Assembly (NCBI GenBank): GCA_000004695.1
Contig: CM000150.2
Coordinates: 416,001-480,000, forward strand
Origin: Dictyostelium discoideum
Lineage: Eukaryota
Reading direction: 5' to 3'
Length of the DNA stretch: 64,000 nucleotides
The notes beneath the pieces were generated by a model that was not told the origin of the DNA, did not search any database, and worked only from the letters and a program-made list of their open reading frames with translations. Numbering within the stretch: the stretch's first letter is position 1; each line of letters starts with the position of its first letter. This document shows, one piece after another, positions 11,853-58,183 of the stretch. The translations under genes and the position numbers were made by a program.

Positions 11853-13187
11853 ATGAAATATTTGGTTACTATATTTTTATTATTTATTTTGTTCTCAATA
11901 ATTAAATGTCAACCTCCAAGATGTTTATACAGTGATATTTATGCAAAATCACCACACCCAAACTTAAAACCCTCTGTAAATTATGTTAATTGGTGGATTT
12001 ATGAACATTTTAATGATGCTGGTTATGGTGGTTCATCTTTTTATACAGATAGTAATTTAAAGGACCTAAATGAAAAAATTTTTGAATTGAGCGATTATAA
12101 TATGAGAGATCAAAACCAGGTATCTCCAATTACTCAAACATTCAGTCAAGTGAATGATCTTCTATTTTCAAGTATTTCTTACAATAATGCTTTTGATGAC
12201 GATTACTCAAAAGGAAGTGCACATGAAAAAGGATTTTTTATTTGGAACGAACAAGGTGGTATTCATGTTATTCATAGTATTCCAAAAACACCTCAAAAAA
12301 TGAATGATTTCTTTTTACATACCTCCAAAGATAATTATTTACAACATTCAATTTGTATTACATTGTCACAAGCTGAATTAGATATTATTCCTAAATATTT
12401 GATTTATACCAACCCTGCAATTGCAACAATAAATTCTAAAAAGATTACTGGTTCAATCATAAGTTCTTTAACAGAAGAAAGTATAACAGGTGTTAATAAT
12501 GTTAACAAAAACGATACATTTGATACAGTAACAGATATTGAAATTGGAGATACGGAACAGTTTACAGAAATCGATACAATTATTCAGGATAATTTTATTG
12601 TAGGTCCAACTCTCCCAAGAATTATTAAAATTCTACAATGGGCTAAATTGGTATGTATAATTATTTTTATTATTGTTTATTTTATAGTTGTAAATTATAC
12701 TCACTCAAATTATACCACTTTTTGTATTTCCCAGGCTAATCATGTCGCTGGAAATATTGATTTTTCATCAGATCCAAATTTTCCAAGCTATCATTATTAT
12801 AGAGCAAAGCAACATTCATTTGGTGAATACTTTGTTCAAACTCCAATACCAGAAAAGAAAAATATTATTGCTGGATCCTCTCAGTATAACTTGGCAAGAA
12901 TGAATAACATTGAAATTTTATGGCAATACATCGGTAAATATTACGGTAGTATTTCAAAATGGATGTCTCAAACAATGACTACAAATAAAGGATTTGCTAA
13001 TAATGTAGTTACTGGTACAACTTTCTCATTAACATTTAGGCTCAATTATCCATTCCTAAATAACCATCAACAAAGAAGTGCCTCAAAAGATCATTCAAAG
13101 TTCATGTATGGTACCAGTAACAATGGTCAACAAAAAATCTTTTGTATAGGTGGTTTAAATTGGCAAAGAGCTCAAGGTAGGATAAAA

Positions 13188-13266
<79 letters not shown>

Positions 13267-14458
13267 TATATATTATATATTATATATTATATTATTTATT
13301 ATTTATTATTACTAATTAATCGTTAATTTGAATATTTTTATTGATACAATACACTTCATAATTAGAATCAAGAGGAGGGGCAGCTTTTTGCATGAATGGT
13401 ATTGGTTATTTAGTTGATTATATGGAAAGACATGTATCATGGACAAGAAAAGGAATAGCCCAAAATCAAGTAAAATCTGGTGTCCCACAATCAACAGTAG
13501 GAACTGAAATAGACTTTTCTTGGATAAAGGATCAATTGAACATCCAAAATCTAGATATTCCCATGGGATTCGAAATTTTAATACCAACAACACAAAATCC
13601 ACTTCCAAAAAGAGTTATTGAACCAGCACAATCAAATTATAAAACCAAAAATGCTCCACTCCTTGTTGAACCTGTGCAGACACCATTAGGTGCATTAGTA
13701 GGTTATAAAACTGAGGCAATTTCAATTGATGTTTTCCCAAGTGTAAAAGATAAAGTACATATATGTCTACAATCATCCCAATGTCCGTATGAATTATCAG
13801 CTAAATCTAATATCATTTCAAATATTAATCTTATTGTTACTCCTTATCAATTAAACTCAGAATCAGAACCTGTTATGACAATTTCCTCCAATGCAAACCC
13901 TGCTATTTCTGTTTCACAAGTATTGAAGAATAATTATTTCTCTTCTATGGCCACTGAAAAAATAATTCAACTAAATGGTAATAATTTTGGAGTTTATTTA
14001 CAAAAGACTCAACAAACTCTAGGTGATTTTAAATTTAAATTTCCACAATCAAGTATCAATACCCCTTGTACTATTTCACCAATAGGTAGTAATATTATTT
14101 CAATTATGTTTCATGAAACTTGTGTTGATCAACTTATATTTTGCTTATTTAGTCATTTCCACATGTATTCAATTAATAATATACCAGTGTTTATGGTAGA
14201 TGACCAAGCTTCATTTTATAATGATGTTACCCAAATTCTTGTAAGATAATATTCAGTTACAAATATAAAATGCACAAAACTTTTTGATCATTACATTCTA
14301 ATACCATTATTAATTTTTTTAAATAGAATGAATTCTTTCCAAACATTCCAGATATCAGTAGATGTGTTGAACAACCACCTTCGCCTGGAACTGCAATGAC
14401 TGATAACGATGAAATTGATGAATTGATGGGATCTCAGGCCATGACTGATGAAATTTAA
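11853..14458 (+). CDS. Deoxyribonuclease II (DNase II) family protein with a long C-terminal extension. Four exons: 11853..12650, 12735..13176, 13375..14240, 14327..14458.
   Basis: N-terminal signal peptide (MKYLVTIFLLFILFSIIKC). The first DNase II catalytic motif 'SAHEKGFFIWNEQGGIHVIHSIPKTP' corresponds to human '[25 protein letters not shown]'. The second motif 'SASKDHSKFMYG...GGLNWQRAQG|GAAFC' corresponds to human 'EDHSKW...QRGGGTLC'. Splice sites: GTATGT(12651)..CAG(12734), phase 0, an in-frame 84-nt intron. GTAGG(13177)..AG(13374), phase 1, through an (ATT)n tract. GTAAGA(14241)..AATAG(14326), phase 0. The last exon ends in an acidic tail 'DNDEIDELMGSQAMTDEI*'. Confidence 0.7.
13186..13262. 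repeat. (ATT)n microsatellite of about 25 units inside intron 2 of the DNase II-like gene. It produces the spurious poly-Tyr tail of the six-frame ORF 11853..13319.
   Basis: Direct reading. Confidence 0.9.
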
Positions 14459-22777: not shown

Positions 22778-22808
<31 letters not shown>

Positions 22809-22944
22809 TTCTATTTTCCCTTTAAATATTTTATTATAAATTGAACTATTTTTTTTTTTTTAATCATTCAAAATAATTACAATAATAAATTTTACCATTA
22901 AAATTTTATTTCCATAAAAACTAATAAAAATATTGTAATAATAA

Positions 22945-23028
22945 ATAAAATAAAATAAAATAAAATAGAATAAAATAAAATAAAATAAAATAAAATAAAA
23001 TAAAATAAAATAAAATAAAATAAAATAA
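22945..23028. repeat. (TAAAA)n microsatellite of about 17 units, about 110 bp upstream of the FAD-oxidase start codon
   Basis: Direct reading. Confidence 0.9.
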
Positions 23029-23136
23029 CCTTTTTGTATTTTTAATAATAAAAAAAAAAAAAAAACCATAAACATGTATTAAAAAAAAAAAAAAAAAAAA
23101 ATAATAATAATTAAATAATATTTTTTAAAAAATAAA

Positions 23137-23430
23137 ATGAAATTAAATAATATTTTATTATTTTTATCATTTGTATTAATTACTATTAATCAAATTTCAA
23201 TAACTCAAGCTGTCCAATGTGTTGATTATAATAATCCAAATTATTATAGATTTATTAATCCATTAATGAATAATAGAGCATACTGTTATATTAAACCAAC
23301 GAATGCTTCTGAAATTAGTGATGCAATTTTATATGCACAAAGTATTAATAGAGGTGTAAGTTTTTATTTTTTTTTTTTTTATAAAATCTTTTTATTATTT
23401 TTTTAAAATTTAAATTCAATTAATTAATTA

Positions 23431-23478
<48 letters not shown>

Positions 23479-24790
23479 ATTAATTTAATTTTAGGTATCA
23501 ATTAGATCAGGTGGTCATTCAGCAACACAATTTTCAATGTTAAATAAAACTGTTAATATTGATTTAAGTTCATTAAAAGGTATTGAAATTGATGTTGAAG
23601 CTCAAACTGTTGTTGTACAAGCTGGTGTACAAGTTATTGAATTATATAATGCCACAACTAAATTATTATTGGCAACAACTGCTGGTAGTTGTCCAACTGT
23701 TGGTATGGGTGTTGTATTAGGTGGTGGATCAAATTACTTTGGTGGTAAATATGGTTATATGGCTGATAACATATTAGAATTCACCGTTGTACTTGAAGAT
23801 GGTTCAATTGTTAAAGCCAATCCAAAGAATAAATATAGTGATCTCTATTGGGCATTGGCTGGTTCTGGTGGTGGTGGTTTTGGTGTTGTTGTAGATTACA
23901 AAATTAAAGTTTACCCAATTCCGCAATATTTTTACAAGAATACCATTCGTTTCGATATTGTCAATTTAGATAAAGCTCTCGCCTTATTGGATTCTTATGT
24001 ACGTTCTGCCACTGAACAAACTCGTGAAAATATCTATGTCAATATGTACTCTCAATTAACTTTGAAATCCGCAAATATGACTCCATCCGCTAGTATTACA
24101 TTCTTTTACAATGGTCCACTTGAAGAGGGTGATTTCGAATTCAGAAAATTGTTAGCCGATTTCCTTTGTCCACCATCAAATCCAACCTGTACACCATTGG
24201 GTAGAGTCACCACCATGGATATCCAAACTTTAAAGAAAACATTCTGGGAAGTCATTAGCTCAATGAGTTATGATAATAATCCATTAAGACAATTCACCAA
24301 AGGTAGATTCGTTAAGAAATTATCTAAAAACGATGTACCAAATGCTATCAACGATTTCTATAAATATGCCGTCACCAATATCATCAATTCAACCTCTTTA
24401 ATTAAACCAGAAACATTGTTAAATATTAATCAAGCTATTTTCTATCATGGTGGTAAACAAAATCAAGATAGAACTGGTTCAATCGATTCTCCATTCAATT
24501 CTTTCCTTCACAGAGGTGATGAAGCTATGTGGTCATACACTATTGTCGCTCAATATAATAACACTGAAAATGATCCATTATTCTCTGGTCTTAGAAAACT
24601 TGTAAACTCTAAACTCTCTTCAATTGGTGATAAATTAAATAATAACTATCCAGATGATGAATTTGAAGATTGGCAAACCGGACTCTATGTCACCAAATCA
24701 AATTATAAAAAACTTCAAGAAATTAAAGGAAAATATGATCCAAATAATTATTTTAATTATCCACAATCAATTGAATTACCAAAGAAATAA
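23137..24790 (+). CDS. FAD-linked oxidoreductase of the berberine-bridge-enzyme / vanillyl-alcohol-oxidase type (FAD_binding_4 + BBE-like C-terminus), secreted. Two exons: 23137..23355 and 23495..24790.
   Basis: Signal peptide MKLNNILLFLSFVLITINQ. Exon 1 ends '...AQSINRG' at GTAAGT (23356). Acceptor TTAG|GTATCA at 23494/23495. Exon 2 begins 'VSIRSGGHSATQFS...', the FAD-binding 'R-S-G-G-H' motif. It goes on with '...GSCPTVGMGVVLGGGSNYFGGKYGYMADNILEFTVVLEDGSIVKA...DLYWALAGSGGGGFGVVVDYKIKVYP', typical of this family. The C-terminal 'KYDPNNYFNYPQSI' resembles the BBE domain. Confidence 0.85.
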
Positions 24791-25559
24791 ATAAATTTAA
24801 TAATTAAATTAAACAATTAAAATAATACTTTTATTAAATAATAATTAATTTTTTTTTTTTTCTAAACACTTTTTCCATTTTTTTTTTTTTATATTTTTTT
24901 TATATTTTTTTTTATTTTATTTTAATTTTTTTCTAAAGATAAAATTTTAACATTTTAAATAAGAGTTGAATCAAAACAGCAAGAAGAGGTGTATTCAGAG
25001 GTCAATTTTGGTTTTATATATACATGTTTAAACTTTATTTTATTGTTTTAAAGTTGTGGTGTTGAGTATTGTACTATTTGTATTTTGTATGAGAAGAAAG
25101 TCTATGTTTTTTGATGAGTGCACGAGTTAATTTTGTTAAATCTTTTAATTTTTTACATAGTTCTGCTGTTTTTAAATTTGCTAGTTTATCTTTATCATTG
25201 CCACTCTCTAAATTTTGTATATTTTTCATTCCAATAAATGTATTATGTATAATACTATCTTGACCAATTTTAATAAACAAAGAACAGAAATATTTTGAAT
25301 GAAAAAAAAATAAAAAAAAATAAAAAAAAGGTGGAGTTACAACTTTTACCCAAAATAAATAAAAAAATAAAAAAGAAAAAAGATCAGATTTTTCTAGTGA
25401 TCATTTTTTTTTTTTTTTTGGAAAAATAAATAAATAAAAAAAATAATAAAAATAAAACAAAATTAGAAAATTTTATAAAAAAACAGTTATTTGTTTTTAA
25501 AACACAAACAAATATTTTTTATTTTTTTATTTTTTTAAAAAATAATGTCGTTAAATTAT

Positions 25560-26750
25560 TAATAAAAAAAAAAAAAAAAAGATTCCTGCACAACACATCA
25601 TATGAAAATAAAAGCGAATCCACCAATTCTCCTTGAAATTTTGAAGGGTAATAATGATCAAATGCTCCATCAAATACTCTATAAATTTTGATCAAAATTA
25701 CCACCAACTGCAGGTGAACATTTACAACTTAAAATATCATTAGTATCACAAAGTGTATCTTTGACAAAGTGTAAAAATATCTTTTAAATCATTTGAGTTA
25801 AAAGGTGGTGGCAATTATCAGAATCTCCCTCTGTGATATCAATTGGATTGAAAGTACTATTGTCTTTGAGAGATTTTCTCTTCAATGGTACCAACTGTTG
25901 TAAAGGTAAGATAAATTGTTGATACAACAATTTTTAGTTGACCTTCTGTCCAAACACAAGAGACACATAGATTGAACATCATGTGCTGGATTTCAATCTA
26001 CATCGAATAAAACCAAATGATTACCACCACCACCACCACCAATAAGATTCGTCAAACCAACACCTCACCTGCTTTTGATATAAGAAGAAATACAAACTCT
26101 GGTTAAGAGTTGGATCATTATAAATTTTAACAAATTGTTGACGTTTAGCATACTTGGTGTTGAACCATCCAATTGAAAGTATTCATAACCACGAGTTTTA
26201 TATACTTGAGTAAATAATTTGAAATGACAATTACAGTTTAGTCACCAGACTTTGAGTTTTCCAATATTTGCAAGTACAAATGATAACTTACTGGAATATT
26301 GTGGTTGCGATTGGTGAAAGTACAAAAACAGGTAGAACCAATATAATTTTATTTATACCATCACCCTTTCTTTAAAGTTCTTGACCCGAATTAACAAACC
26401 TACATGGTGCAACGATTACAACTTTTTCTTTGCAGTTGTGATTCACCTTTTGTACTTTTGAGAGTGTTGAGAGATTTGATTTCTTTCAATCTTTGTTAGG
26501 AGCTAATGTTATATAATGAGTGGAAGGGTATACAACTCCAACTCCATATGGTGTGTGGTTTTACTGATACCTTATAGTTTACTACCACTACTATTGGTTG
26601 GGGGTGGATTCTTGAAAATCTCGGGAATAATTTCAATTTACTCTAACCATTTTGATGAGAAGTGGATTAACATTATATGATGTAGTTGTTTGAATAAATT
26701 ATTGAACTTGGTTGGTTCTTCAATATATCTTGTTATATGACTCATTTTTA
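25560..26750 (-). pseudogene. Decayed fragment of an SNF2-family helicase gene (region spanning the helicase-C motifs) with multiple stops and frameshifts
   Basis: The minus-strand translation, switching between frames, gives '...SSKLSFVLANIGKLKVW*LNCNCHFKLFTQVYKTRGYEYFQLDGST...', then 'AKRQQFVKIYNDPTLNQSLYFFL...' in another frame, then '...DVD*NPAHDVQSM...RRSTKNCCINNLSYLYNSWYH*REN'. This parallels the SNF2 helicase-C consensus, seen here in the 48992-58183 gene as '...[32 protein letters not shown]...[42 protein letters not shown]...[41 protein letters not shown]'. The region is about 38-40% G+C throughout, has stops in all frames and no long ORF. Confidence 0.6.
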
Positions 26751-26778
26751 ATTTATTTTAAAAATTATTATTTATTAT

Positions 26779-26814
<36 letters not shown>

Positions 26815-27098
26815 CAACAGTTTATATTTAAGTTTGTTATACAAAAAATTAAAAAAATAAAAAAATAAAAGATTATTTTATTATTTATTTTTTGGAATGG
26901 AAAAGAAATTAAAAAAAAAAACCCCCTTTTTTTTTCCAAAAGTGGAAAAAGGTTGAACAACACTAAAAATAAAAACCAAAAATAAAATAACAAAAAAAAT
27001 AAAAATAAAACGAATATAGAGTTTAATTTACTAAATTTATCTAATTCTAAATTCTAAATTTTTATCAAACCAGTACAACTCAATTTCAATAAAATTGT

Positions 27099-27134
<36 letters not shown>

Positions 27135-27333
27135 TATAACATATCTTAACTCCCATATACTGTTTCCGTATCTTGTTGACAATTTAATTGAATCTCTTAA
27201 AAAATGAAAAATAAAAAAATAAAAATAAAATTAAAAATAAAAAAAAAAAATAAAAAAAATATCTTGTTGGATTTTTTCAACTGACAAAAAAATAATTTTC
27301 GTTTGCTCTTTCAAAATTCTTTTTTTTTTTTTA

Positions 27334-27374
<41 letters not shown>

Positions 27375-27513
27375 TTTTGTTCAACAATCGTAAAAAAAAT
27401 TTAATTGTATCTTTTTATTCATTTTATCCATTAAAAATAAAAAAATAAAAAAAAAAATAAATTCACTTTTATTTTTTTATTTTTTTTATTTTTAAAAAAA
27501 AAGAAAAAGAAAA

Positions 27514-27865
27514 ATGTCAACAACATCAATGATATTAACTAAAAAAAATATAATAATATTATCAATTATAATTATAACAATAATTGCATATCAATTTTAT
27601 ATAACATCACCACAATCATTCCCATCATCAAATACAATCACAAATACAATAAATACATCTGGTAAAGGATTAGATTATACAGAATTATTAAATTTACAAA
27701 AAGATTTAAAAGCGCAACAAACTGAAATTAGAAAACAATTAGAACAATTAAAATATTCAATTAATGATATAAATCAAAATCAAAATGAAAATCAAAATCA
27801 AATTAACAATGAATATAATAATAATAAATTAAATGATGAACAAGAAAATAATAATAATAATAATT

Positions 27866-27896
<31 letters not shown>

Positions 27897-28929
27897 ATTA
27901 ATAAATTATAAAGAAAGAATTAAAAAGAAATCAAAAGAACAACCAAATACATGTATACCAGTTGAAGGTAAATTATTATGTTTACCAAATTTTATAGTTA
28001 TTGGTACAATGAAGAGTGGTACAACATTTTTAGATTATTATTTACAAAAGCATCCACAAATCGCTCATCATAGTAAGAAAGAGATTTGGTATTTCAATAG
28101 TTATTATGCAAATGGTATTGAATGGTATGCAAAACATTTTGAACAATATACAAGTTTAGAGAATCAGAAATTAATTGGTGAAGCAACACCATTCTATATT
28201 AATAATCCAAATACTGCACCACGTTTATTTACAACCCTAAAGAATGCCAAATTGATTCTACTATTGAGAGACCCAGTGGAACGTTCCTTATCACAATACC
28301 ATTTCTCAATTCAATGGTTAAAAAGAAACAAGTCACCACCATTGGAATACTCTTTTGAGCATTTAATCCATGAAGAAGCTGACGTAATTGAAACTTGTAT
28401 ACGTGGTCATGAGAGATATAAAGAAGCATTTAAACAAAGAAAAGAAATTGAAAAGAATGGCGGTGGTGGTTTACTAAATGATAATACTAGTGGTGAAGAA
28501 TTCAATTTGGTTGATCCTTTTTACACTTTACATTCTGAAAAGAATTGGACATTCTATAAAGATTGTATTAGATGTGATAAATGTTTCCAAATTGGTTCAA
28601 TTCTTCATACAAGTGGTCATCCAACTTTTGGTATGTTAGCAAAATCACTCTATTTTGAGCAATTGGATTATTGGTTAAACTTTTTCCCATTGGAACAAAT
28701 TCATATCATTAGATATGAAGATATCTCTTCACAACCTGAATCAGTTTTAAGTGAATTAGAAGATTTCTTAGATATTAATCATATTGATTATGGTGAATTT
28801 AAACCAAGAAATGTTGTACAACATGATCCAATGAATCAAGAAATTAAATCATATTTAATTAATTATTTTAAACAAAGTAATGAAAAACTTTATAATTTAT
28901 TAAATAGAGATTTTAAATGGCAAAATTAA
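27514..28929 (+). CDS. Type-II membrane sulfotransferase (471 aa) with PAPS-binding 5'-PSB and 3'-PB motifs of the heparan-sulfate sulfotransferase (HS3ST/NDST sulfotransferase-domain) type
   Basis: Single ORF. N-terminal TM anchor (IIILSIIIITIIAYQFYI). A coiled/poly-Asn stem. Then 'CLPNFIVIGTMKSGTTFLDYYL' (5'-PSB, K-S-G-T-T) and 'LLLRDPVERSLSQYHF' (3'-PB, R-D-P-x-x-R-x-x-S). Confidence 0.8.
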
Positions 28930-29091: not shown

Positions 29092-29260
29092 TTATTTAAA
29101 TTTTTTTAAATTTAAAATTAAATTATTTGAAATTGATTTTAAAATTGTTAAATTTAAATTTTTGTTAAAATTATTTAAATTATTTGAAAATGTTGAAAAT
29201 CTTTGAAATAAAATATTATTTAAATTTTTATTTTTAATAATATTTAAATTATTTAAAAAA

Positions 29261-29291
<31 letters not shown>

Positions 29292-30321
29292 TATTATTAT
29301 TATTATTATTAAAATTTATATCTTTAATTGATTCTTTAAAAACTCTTTTTGTATATTCATCATTATTTGTTAATTCATTTTTTTTTAAAATTTTTTGATT
29401 TAAAAATTCTGGTCTACTATTATTTGATTTTAAATTATAATTAAAAAAATTTTGAGTAACTTTATTAAATTGTAAAACATCTTCCAATTGTAAAGAGTGA
29501 CCTGAATTTTCACAAATATAAATTAAATTTGGTTGAATAATATCATAGGTTTTAATAACTCTTTTACAATCAATGAATTTATCATGTGTACCGAAAAACA
29601 TTACAATTGGAAATGGTCTATTTAAAACTTTTTCTTTAATTTTATTATAAGGTTTAATTTTATATTTTATCATTGCAAACATTGTTGAAATTATTATTGA
29701 GGGGGAGATTGTTTTTCTCTCATTATACATTTTCGAGAGTAATGGTAGTATGAATTCCCTGTTATTTCCATACTGTTTAATTCTAGATGGTGAATTTAAA
29801 AATGATTGGGAATATAATAAATCAATTAAATAATTTGATGGGTCGACTTTATTCTTTTTTGCAATGTAGTCTATGAGGTATAATTGTTGAGCACCTTTTT
29901 GAAATAGGAATCCGTAGTTTATATTGGGTGGGAATGATACTAAATTGAGGGTTTTTATAATTGATGGTGCCATTAGGGATAGCTCATATGCGATACTTGA
30001 TCCCATGGATACACCAACTATATTAACTTTTTCCCATTTTAAATGCTCAATTAATTCATTGGCATCTGATGCAAAATCATTTATACTACTTACACCATTA
30101 AATTCAGATTCACCAACACCAACATGATCATAAATACAAATTGAATATTTATTTGGATTATTTTCTAAAAAATATTTTATTGTTGATAACCAATATTTAC
30201 CACCTAATAATAATCCCATTATAAATAAACATTTCTCTTCACCATCTCCAAAAACTTTATAATTCATTTTAAATGGTTGATTTCTATTTTTAACATTTAT
30301 AAAAATATTTGAATTTTCCAT
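29092..30321 (-). CDS. Alpha/beta-hydrolase fold protein (409 aa) with a GxSxG nucleophile elbow and an Asn-rich C-terminal tail
   Basis: Single ORF. '...KVNIVGVSMGSSIAYELS...' is the G-V-S-M-G nucleophile motif. A downstream 'ENSGHSLQLED' supplies the catalytic His region. Low-complexity N/K-rich C-terminus. Confidence 0.75.

Positions 30322-32891: not shown

Positions 32892-35792
<2,901 letters not shown>

Positions 35793-48991: not shown

Positions 48992-58183
<9,192 letters not shown>

What the first reader, a model, noticed from the sequence alone, without database searches (positions are those of the whole stretch)
25560..26750. Relic of an SNF2-family helicase gene (helicase-C motifs recognisable) with no intact frame
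A 1.2-kb block is about 38-40% G+C, far above the roughly 15% of the surrounding intergenic DNA and comparable to catalytic-domain coding sequence. Read across frames on the minus strand it yields recognisable SNF2 helicase-C elements: ...KLFTQVYKTRGYEYFQLDGST... / ...KRQQFVKIYNDP..FFL... / ...DxD(W)NPAHD.Q.. / ..RRST.. / ..YLYNSWYH.REN. It is interrupted by several stops and frameshifts. It is not a recent copy of the intact SWR1/Domino-like gene 23 kb away: the nucleotide similarity is limited to short k-mers. That still-high G+C implies a fairly recent inactivation, or constraint at the DNA or RNA level. The N-terminal ATPase half is missing (the block abuts a poly-T tract at about 26760), so it is a truncated fragment. 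It may have been carried by a transposition or segmental event.
Basis: partly seen in the sequence, partly recalled or inferred. Interest (0 to 1): 0.6.

Follow-up and report, generated by a model that had tools for sequence, protein, structure and literature searches.

The report
Scrambled dead copy of rad54
This 1.15-kb block in Dictyostelium discoideum chromosome 1 is a broken, rearranged partial copy of the organism's own rad54 DNA-repair gene, an ordinary young pseudogene and not a working gene or an ancient relic.

Summary
Window 25597-26745 (minus strand) is 32% G+C against about 13% in the flanks, not the 38-40% stated. It carries SNF2 helicase-C motifs spread over three reading frames.

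The source can be named. About 790 nt are a partial copy of the D. discoideum rad54 gene (AX4 protein XP_639303.1 / Q54RP8), which is intact on another contig. The copy is 79-80% identical in DNA. It is 76% identical in protein over aligned codons of Rad54 residues 612-816, with 10 frameshifts and 2 stops.

The copy is also rearranged:
- a lobe-1 piece (residues 320-372);
- an inverted 45-nt piece (residues 370-384);
- a 680-nt deletion that removes motifs II-III;
- a CAACC microhomology at one junction.

So the ATPase half is mostly missing, not wholly missing. About 350 nt at the two ends match nothing I could find.

Changes specific to the copy ignore codon position, are A/T-biased and are rich in indels, which indicates neutral decay. 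The copy was made after the D. firmibasis split. The 4.4-kb segment that holds it is absent from the same locus in the sibling D. cf. discoideum.

NCBI's 136-aa gene model over the block is an artefact. I found no evidence of function. Interest is low.

The parts
25597..26745 (-). Whole G+C-rich block (0.32 G+C; flanks 0.13): the rad54-derived pseudogene plus two ends of unknown origin
26487..26745 (-). Segment U. It is G+C-rich (0.32) and starts with an ATG at 26745-26743 in an AAAATG context. No homology to rad54 or to anything else was found, and it shows no coding-like G+C periodicity.
   Evidence: Frameshift-aware alignment to Rad54 scores the same as shuffled DNA. Nucleotide alignment to rad54 also scores at shuffle level. 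A six-frame query found nothing at E<=10 among 5.8 billion proteins. No match elsewhere in the window.
26345..26486 (-). Segment S1: copy of rad54 codons 320-372 (ATPase lobe 1, the VIVAPCSLVGNW / motif Ia region), with 2 frameshifts and 1 stop
   Evidence: blastn 78.7% over 136 columns, E 1.6e-25. Protein-level alignment 29/45 identical.
26301..26345 (+). Segment S2: copy of rad54 codons 370-384 (AIGESTKTGR), inverted relative to the rest of the relic
   Evidence: blastn 87% over 39 nt in reverse orientation, E 1e-8. The + strand translates to VVAIGESTKTGRTNI, 11/15 identical.
26303..26307 (-). CAACC microhomology shared by the inverted piece and the start of S3, at the junction that deletes rad54 nt about 1264-1945 (codons about 385-611, helicase motifs II-III)
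   Evidence: Sequences read side by side. The S2 and S3 matches overlap.
25685..26307 (-). Segment S3: copy of rad54 codons 612-816 (helicase-C lobe with motifs IV-VI, plus the Rad54 C-terminal CxC region). It has 10 frameshifts and 2 in-frame stops.
   Evidence: blastn 79.8% over 650 columns, 43 mismatches, 19 gap openings, E 9e-168. 147/193 aligned codons are identical to AX4 Rad54. BLASTP E 3e-86.
26238..26240 (-). In-frame stop TAA replacing Lys in NSKSGDK|TVI
   Evidence: sequence
25993..25995 (-). In-frame stop TGA replacing the invariant Trp of the DWNP motif (helicase motif V/VI region)
   Evidence: alignment (TGG in all four functional genes, TGA in the relic)
26023..26040 (-). (GGT)6 triplet expansion that inserts four extra Gly codons in GVGLNLIGG
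25597..25684 (-). Segment T: G+C-rich tail with no significant similarity to rad54
   Evidence: scores within the shuffled range
22790..27198 (.). The 4.4-kb segment (BBE-type FAD oxidoreductase gene plus the relic) that is present in D. discoideum but replaced by about 415 nt at the syntenic site of D. cf. discoideum. The boundaries are approximate because they lie in A/T runs.

Best explanation
The block is a non-functional, non-processed, fragmentary duplicate of the D. discoideum rad54 gene.

Shown:
- About 790 nt were copied from rad54 (AX4 protein Q54RP8 / XP_639303.1), which remains intact on another contig.
- The copy has rad54 codons 320-372, then codons 370-384 inverted. It then jumps across a 680-nt gap to codons 612-816.
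- The last junction lies on a 5-nt CAACC microhomology.
- The copy lacks helicase motifs I-III and carries 10-12 frameshifts and at least 2 stops, so it cannot encode an ATPase.
- Since duplication it has changed without regard to codon position. It shows a G/C-to-A/T bias and roughly one small indel per three to four substitutions.

Inferred:
- The deletion, inversion and microhomology suggest that the copy arose, or was later rearranged, by a DNA-level template-switching or microhomology-mediated repair event. Reverse transcription is less likely.
- The copy was made late on the lineage leading to D. discoideum and D. cf. discoideum, after the split from D. firmibasis.
- It sits in a 4.4-kb segment that was either inserted in D. 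discoideum or deleted in D. cf. discoideum.
- Its 32% G+C is residual coding composition that A/T-biased mutation has not yet erased.
For: Parent identity:
- The relic aligns best to the D. discoideum-complex Rad54: score 569, 69% identity; 76% over aligned codons against the AX4 protein.
- Other proteins score lower: Synstelium Rad54 53%, a second dictyostelid-looking Rad54-like protein (source species not given) score 295, fungal Rdh54-like about 47%.
- Nucleotide matches to the rad54 gene are E 9e-168, 1.6e-25 and 1e-8 (inverted).
- The parent is intact in AX4 and in four other assemblies, with full SNF2-rel_dom and Helicase_C domains.

Neutral decay:
- Relic-specific substitutions fall 26/17/13 on parental codon positions 1/2/3, against 6/1/56 between functional orthologues.
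- G/C-to-A/T changes are 28 of 175 sites; A/T-to-G/C changes are 14 of 332 sites.
- There are 14-19 indels in about 600 nt.
- This matches the mutation-accumulation spectrum of D. discoideum, which is A/T-biased with indel rates far above the base-substitution rate (PMC7466956).

Timing:
- p-distance from the relic is 0.12-0.13 to D. discoideum and D. cf. discoideum, 0.19 to D. firmibasis and 0.26 to D. purpureum.
- The relic carries 11 of the 13 substitutions derived on the D. discoideum + D. cf. discoideum stem.

Fixed and equally dead:
- The same disablements occur in five independent Logan contigs and in assembly GCA_054883475.1.

No other feature:
- No Rfam hit, and no repeat involving the relic, within the window; the only internal repeats (23362-23493 and 27182-27354) lie outside it. 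No tRNA in window 15000-37000.
Against: - About 350 nt of the block (U at 26487-26745 and T at 25597-25684) are as G+C-rich as the rest but match neither rad54 nor any protein in the database. A 'rad54 copy' therefore does not explain the whole block.
- The relic branch (about 0.11 substitutions per site) is longer than the parent-side branch would predict. Misalignment, an older duplication, or error-prone synthesis at the time of copying could each explain this.
- At 4 synonymous sites the relic shares apparently derived states with D. cf. discoideum rad54 and not with the D. discoideum strain compared. That blurs the order of duplication and speciation.
- The only parental intron lies outside the copied part, so an RNA intermediate cannot be formally excluded.
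- Transcription was not tested.
Confidence: 0.88

Rival explanations
1. It is an ancient or unitary relic of a lost SNF2 gene, for example a RAD54B/Rdh54-type meiotic translocase lost together with Dmc1 and Spo11 in dictyostelids.
For: - The first database hits other than predictions over this locus itself were fungal Rdh54/RAD54B-like fragments at 40-42% identity.
- Dictyostelids lack DMC1 and SPO11 (PMC5381635).
Against: - An intact parent exists and is 79-80% identical in DNA.
- The relic shares D. discoideum-lineage synonymous substitutions.
- It scores far higher against D. discoideum Rad54 (score 569) than against the other dictyostelid-looking Rad54-like protein, whose source species is not given (score 295).
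Confidence: 0.02
2. It is a real multi-exon protein-coding gene, as annotated by NCBI (ACTFIT_008350, 136 aa).
For: - A gene model exists in GCA_054883475.1.
- The block starts with an ATG in a good AAAATG context.
Against: - The model's three 'introns' are 31-38% G+C, against 13% for a real neighbouring intron.
- One 'intron' excises the sequence homologous to helicase motif V. The product keeps 18 out-of-frame residues (MLNVNNLLKFIMIQLLTR) and has no Pfam domain.
- There are no homologues other than predictions over the same locus.
- The substitution pattern is neutral.
Confidence: 0.03
3. It is a processed (retrotransposed) pseudogene, or a fragment carried by a mobile element.
For: - The copy lies on a different contig from its parent.
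- It is bounded by homopolymer runs.
- It lies in a lineage-specific 4.4-kb segment.
Against: - There is no poly(A) at the 3' end on the sense strand; a T17 run follows instead.
- The internal inversion and the microhomology junction point to DNA-level rearrangement.
- There is no tRNA gene in window 15000-37000 (about 10 kb on each side of the relic), which is where Dictyostelium TRE retroelements integrate (that targeting is established knowledge, not tested here).
- No terminal repeats and no element-like repeat within the window.
- The parental intron lies outside the copied region, so intron absence is uninformative.
Confidence: 0.06
4. It is a pseudogene-derived regulatory RNA: the block is transcribed and its 80%-identical sense or antisense RNA modulates rad54.
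For: None is direct. The block has promoter-like A/T tracts on both sides, and a gene model was called there.
Against: - There is no sequence constraint.
- The long indel-free identical stretches needed for siRNA targeting are few.
- There is no Rfam hit.
- The block is absent from the syntenic locus of the sibling species.
Confidence: 0.03

Closest known systems
D. discoideum rad54 orthologue (UniProt Q54RP8 / XP_639303.1, 'SNF2-related domain-containing protein', 931 aa; treated as RAD54 in PMC3927307 and PMC5381635)
   Same: It is the source sequence. DNA identity is 79-80% over 790 nt. Lineage-specific residues are shared, including NSKSGDK, KTRGY, TFTTGTIEEK, ITEGDSDN and CKCAPTVGG.
   Different: The parent is intact, with SNF2-rel_dom at 220 bits and Helicase_C at 67 bits. 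The relic lacks codons 1-319, 385-611 and 817-931, has an inverted piece, 10-12 frameshifts and stops, and evolves neutrally.
Duplicated (non-processed) fragmentary pseudogenes, such as the partial tgr gene fragments described in Dictyostelium genomes (PMC12745789)
   Same: Both are partial gene copies that are rearranged, vary between lineages and decay neutrally.
   Different: The tgr fragments lie next to their parents in a hypervariable locus and may be recycled by recombination. This copy is dispersed to another contig, and no recycling is evident.
Rad54 subfamily of SNF2 ATPases (solved example: zebrafish Rad54, PDB 1z3i)
   Same: It is the best solved-structure match to the stitched translation (E 1.8e-30). 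That includes the Rad54-type C-terminal extension after motif VI (FS..L+..F.L....DTHD...C.C).
   Different: The resemblance is by descent only. The relic cannot fold into a two-lobe ATPase because lobe 1 is almost entirely absent.
swr1 (DDB_G0267638), the intact SWR1-type SNF2 gene in the same window at about 51.3-53.9 kb
   Same: Same superfamily. Protein similarity to Rad54-type queries is 24-38%.
   Different: It is not the parent. There is no nucleotide similarity to the relic.

Membership tests
Functional SNF2-family ATPase | Uninterrupted reading frame encoding both RecA-like lobes | tested here: not met
   The longest ORF in the block is 62 aa. There are 10-12 frameshifts and at least 2 stops in the homologous part.
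Functional SNF2-family ATPase | Helicase motifs I, II and III (Walker A, DEGH box) of lobe 1 | tested here: not met
   Only parental codons 320-384 of lobe 1 are represented. Codons 385-611 are deleted and nothing upstream of codon 320 is detectable. The assignment of motifs I-III to the missing codons comes from reading the parent sequence (GLGKS just upstream of codon 320, DEGH within the deleted 385-611 stretch).
Functional SNF2-family ATPase | Pfam Helicase_C above the gathering threshold | tested here: inconclusive
   Raw frames give no hit. The parent-guided translation gives 22.4 bits against a 23.5-bit cut-off. A hand-stitched version gave 29 bits but contained a few manual corrections.
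Rad54 subfamily (by descent) | Closest intact relative is a Rad54-type protein, with the subfamily-specific C-terminal region | tested here: met
   The parent is Q54RP8. I did not resolve whether that gene is best called RAD54 or RAD54B; sources use both names.
Pseudogene (duplicated, non-processed) | An intact paralogous parent exists elsewhere in the same genome | tested here: met
   AX4 protein XP_639303.1 lies on a 5.58-Mb contig, while the relic lies on the 4.92-Mb chromosome-1 record. Parent loci were read in four related assemblies.
Pseudogene (duplicated, non-processed) | Disabling mutations and loss of codon-position constraint | tested here: met
   substitutions 26/17/13 by codon position against 6/1/56 in functional genes, and TGG to TGA in the DWNP motif.
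Processed pseudogene | 3' poly(A) tract, target-site duplication, loss of parental introns | tested here: not met
   A T17 run, not an A run, follows the sense strand. Intron loss cannot be tested because the single parental intron (gene nt about 370-470) lies outside the copy. Target-site duplications cannot be judged in A/T runs.
Transposon-borne gene fragment | Terminal repeats, element genes, or tRNA-gene proximity typical of Dictyostelium TRE elements | tested here: not met
   No tRNA in window 15-37 kb. No non-simple repeats link the segment to other parts of the window. A genome-wide search was not possible.

The most novel reading that the evidence does not exclude
The block may be a patchwork of filler DNA laid down in one error-prone, microhomology-mediated template-switching repair event. 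That event would have stitched pieces of rad54, itself a double-strand-break repair gene, to at least two other unidentified sequences (U and T). It would also have created much of the frameshift load at birth, instead of by slow decay. If so, the block would be a natural fossil of break-induced or template-switch synthesis in Dictyostelium.
Probability: 0.12. Interest if true: 0.4.

Novelty: new member of a known kind. Interest (0 to 1): 0.15.

Why it matters
The main value is for annotation.
- The locus should be labelled a rad54 pseudogene.
- The 136-aa 'hypothetical protein' ACTFIT_008350 should be withdrawn.
- RNA-seq or variant calls over rad54 should allow for an 80%-identical fragment on chromosome 1.

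The secondary value is as a dated piece of neutrally evolving, formerly coding DNA. It shows in natural history the same A/T-biased, indel-rich mutation spectrum seen in mutation-accumulation lines. It also marks a 4.4-kb presence/absence difference between D. discoideum and its cryptic sibling species. It does not bear on any open question about SNF2 enzymes.

Tried and rejected
- **Raw frames against Pfam:** no hits. Frameshifts break every frame into pieces too short to score.
- **Stitched translation in the representative-protein search:** I used a two-row alignment of the two database predictions over the locus instead. It was weak (best non-self hit 51 bits) but surfaced dictyostelid Rad54-like proteins, which led to the parent.
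- **Staircase alignment of in-frame pieces with MAFFT:** the pieces were scattered, so I abandoned it.
- **RAD54B/Rdh54 unitary-relic idea**, raised by the first hits: rejected once the D. discoideum parent was found.
- **Internal tandem duplication**, suggested by 'KEKVVIVAP' resembling 'DKTVIVISNY': rejected. KEKVVIVAP is the lobe-1 VIVAPCS region.
- **Extension of homology into segment U or segment T:** scores equal shuffled controls at both protein and DNA level.
- **Six-frame search of U against 5.8 billion proteins:** nothing at E<=10.
- **AX4 rad54 DNA:** not retrievable by exact-protein look-up. I used another D. discoideum strain and D. cf. discoideum instead.
- **Literature search for dictyBase identifiers around the locus:** nothing found.
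- **tRNA, Rfam and repeat scans:** all empty.

Full report
**Where the window comes from.** The window is Dictyostelium discoideum AX4 chromosome 1. The ORF at 27514-28929 is exactly kil1 (DDB_G0267630, Q55GK8). The ORF at 29092-30321 is exactly DDB_G0267632. Both lie on a 4,923,596-bp record. A second D. discoideum assembly (GCA_054883475.1) matches window 15837-36733 at 99.7%. Its neighbourhood fits swr1 = DDB_G0267638 (PMC3848188).

**The observation.**
- Window 25597-26745 is a sharply bounded block of 0.32 G+C between flanks of 0.126-0.135.
- No ORF in the block exceeds 62 aa.
- Single frames give no Pfam hit. A hand-stitched translation hits zebrafish Rad54 (PDB 1z3i) at E 1.8e-30, ahead of ERCC6, ISWI, CHD and INO80.
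- In-frame pieces keep the coding G+C periodicity of Dictyostelium genes: 0.43/0.34/0.17, against 0.41/0.28/0.15 for the SWR1-type gene.

**Finding the parent.**
- A first database search with the stitched sequence returned only two predictions over this same locus, plus fungal Rdh54-like fragments at about 40% identity. The two predictions were NCBI's ACTFIT_008350 (136 aa) and a Logan ORF in which TGA was read as Trp.
- A profile built from those two predictions, searched against 1.84 billion representatives, gave weak hits. These included a Synstelium polycarpum Rad54-like protein that shared idiosyncratic strings with the relic, such as QPQYSGKL and EGDSDN.
- Searching with that protein gave the dictyostelid orthologues. 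Among them is a 90%-identity cluster containing AX4 XP_639303.1 / Q54RP8 (931 aa), three further D. discoideum and D. cf. discoideum assemblies, and D. firmibasis.
- Published work treats Q54RP8 as the D. discoideum RAD54 (PMC3927307; PMC5381635).
- I wrote a frameshift-aware protein-to-DNA aligner for the comparison. With it the relic aligns to this protein far better than to anything else:
  - score 569 and 69% identity against the cluster representative;
  - 147/193 aligned codons (76%) against the AX4 protein, residues 612-816, with 10 frameshifts and 2 stops;
  - BLASTP of the resulting translation: E 3e-86;
  - comparators: 53% for Synstelium, 44-55% for other Rad54-like proteins, about 47% for fungal Rdh54-like proteins.

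**Anatomy at the DNA level.** The reference is the rad54 gene of D. cf. discoideum (locus L007, gene nt 1-2917).

| Window | rad54 gene nt | Identity | E | Note |
|---|---|---|---|---|
| 26307-25698 | 1946-2547 | 79.8% | 9e-168 | 43 mismatches, 19 gap openings |
| 26473-26350 | 1094-1223 | 78.7% | 1.6e-25 | lobe-1 piece |
| 26341-26303 | 1263-1225 | 87% | 1e-8 | reverse orientation |

- At protein level, the second piece is residues 320-372 (KSIQAITILW...VIVAPCSLVGNWGQELKKWLGDGIN). The inverted piece reads AIGESTKTGR on the + strand.
- The relic is therefore lobe-1 fragment, then a 45-nt in-situ inversion, then a jump over 680 nt, then the helicase-C half.
- The jump removes residues about 385-611, where the DEGH box and motif III lie.
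- The inverted piece and the downstream piece overlap on CAACC, which is present at both parental sites.
- The two ends of the block, U (26487-26745) and T (25597-25684), are as G+C-rich as the rest. They show no similarity to rad54 beyond shuffled controls, at either protein or DNA level.
- U also found nothing in a six-frame search of 5.8 billion proteins and nothing elsewhere in the window.
The block is also not a simple truncation.

**Is it a gene after all?** The NCBI model ACTFIT_008350 avoids the frameshifts by calling three 'introns' of 100-202 nt.
- These are 31-38% G+C, whereas the intron of the neighbouring BBE-type gene is 13%.
- One of them removes the sequence homologous to motif V (FVFLLISKAG-GVGL...LFDVD).
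- The product retains an out-of-frame stretch, has no Pfam domain, and has no homologues other than itself.
- Frame changes occur inside contiguous conserved motifs with 0-2 nt between them, which leaves no room for introns.

I therefore reject the multi-intron gene reading.

**Mode of evolution.** I aligned the relic with rad54 from D. discoideum, D. cf. discoideum, D. firmibasis and D. purpureum.
- At sites where the D. discoideum, D. cf. discoideum and D. firmibasis genes agree, the relic has 56 private substitutions.
- They fall 26/17/13 on parental codon positions 1/2/3. Between the functional orthologues the differences fall 6/1/56.
- G/C-to-A/T changes occurred at 28 of 175 G/C sites. 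A/T-to-G/C changes occurred at 14 of 332 A/T sites.
- There are 14 indels by global MAFFT alignment and 19 by blastn in about 600 nt, including a (GGT)6 expansion.
- This is what the mutation-accumulation study of D. discoideum predicts for unconstrained DNA. That study found strongly A/T-biased substitutions and indel rates far above the base-substitution rate (PMC7466956).
- The retained G+C therefore needs no constraint. It reflects youth.

**Age.**
- Uncorrected distances from the relic are 0.119-0.133 to D. cf. discoideum and D. discoideum, 0.194 to D. firmibasis and 0.264 to D. purpureum. D. discoideum to D. firmibasis is 0.105.
- Thirteen substitutions can be polarised as derived on the common stem of D. 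discoideum and D. cf. discoideum. The relic carries 11 of them. The copy was therefore made late on that stem or later, well after the D. firmibasis split.
- Of the 14 sites that differ between the two D. discoideum-complex genes, the relic agrees with D. cf. discoideum at 11. Four of these look derived. Parallel C-to-T changes, ancestral polymorphism, or the use of a non-AX4 strain for comparison could each explain this. I could not resolve it because AX4's own rad54 DNA was not retrievable.

**Genomic context.**
- In D. cf. discoideum, the flanks of kil1 align to the window, but window 22790-27198 is replaced by about 415 nt. 'D. cf. discoideum' probably corresponds to the 'possible cryptic species' strains of PMC12745789, though the paper does not use that name.
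- The BBE-type oxidoreductase gene and the relic are therefore a lineage-specific presence/absence segment.
- I cannot say whether this is an insertion in D. discoideum or a deletion in the sibling species.
- There is no tRNA gene in window 15000-37000, no Rfam match in 24700-27600, and no non-simple repeat tying the segment to the rest of the window.
- Five Logan contigs from different sequencing runs carry the relic colinearly at 98.3-99.2% identity with the same frameshifts and stops.
- Those contigs end in the flanking homopolymer runs, so they say nothing about transcription.

**Mechanism.**
- *Shown:* the relic descends from rad54. It has a deletion, an inversion and a microhomology junction. 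It is disabled and evolves neutrally.
- *Inferred:* the copy was made or remodelled by DNA-level template switching or microhomology-mediated repair.
- *Inferred:* the relic has no function.
- An RNA intermediate cannot be formally excluded, because the only parental intron (gene nt about 370-470) lies outside the copied part. However, no sense-strand poly(A) follows the relic, and the inversion argues against that route.

**Verdict.** This is an ordinary young duplicated pseudogene fragment. It is a scrambled partial copy of rad54. Interest is low. The unexplained items are segments U and T and the somewhat long relic branch.

Noticed in passing
window 22790-27198; locus L011 7171-7586: A 4.4-kb segment holding a BBE/FAD_binding_4 oxidoreductase gene (23137-24790) and the relic is present in D. 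discoideum. At the syntenic site of D. cf. discoideum it is replaced by about 415 nt.
   Followed up: partly
L011 9582-12115 (D. cf. discoideum, between kil1 and the AB-hydrolase gene): D. cf. discoideum has about 2.5 kb of extra sequence here that AX4 lacks. It contains a predicted 136-aa gene (L011 10689-11330) and has no similarity to rad54 or to the relic.
   Followed up: partly
window 25860-26745 (minus strand): NCBI gene model ACTFIT_008350 (136 aa, 'hypothetical protein') is drawn over the pseudogene. It uses G+C-rich pseudo-introns and should be treated as an annotation artefact.
   Followed up: yes
window 26487-26745 and 25597-25684: Two G+C-rich stretches at the ends of the block (U and T) match neither rad54 nor anything else I could search. 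U begins with an ATG in an AAAATG context and has a 35-aa ORF.
   Followed up: partly
alignment columns 11, 14, 185 and 226 of the S3 alignment (window about 26297, 26294, 26140 and 26100): At four synonymous sites the relic shares apparently derived states with D. cf. discoideum rad54 and not with the D. discoideum strain compared (L010). Homoplasy, ancestral polymorphism or a strain effect could explain this.
   Followed up: partly
window 32900-34210, 54480-54720, 57500-57775, 13186-13343: Mutually similar simple-sequence tracts (90-98% identical over 120-220 nt). Their nature was not examined. Two of them lie inside the 966-aa gene at about 32.9-35.8 kb. They appeared as cross-matches when the second assembly was aligned.
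   Followed up: no
window 25074-25280 (minus strand): A 68-aa ORF in a mildly G+C-enriched patch (0.20-0.235) lies between the BBE-type gene and the relic. It is not annotated in the second assembly and shows no similarity to Rad54.
   Followed up: no
protein P0034 (932 aa, EukProt, dictyostelid-looking): Dictyostelids appear to have a second Rad54-like paralogue besides Q54RP8. Which of the two corresponds to RAD54 and which to RAD54B/Rdh54 is not settled by database names. The D. firmibasis orthologue of Q54RP8 is labelled RAD54B in UniRef.
   Followed up: no
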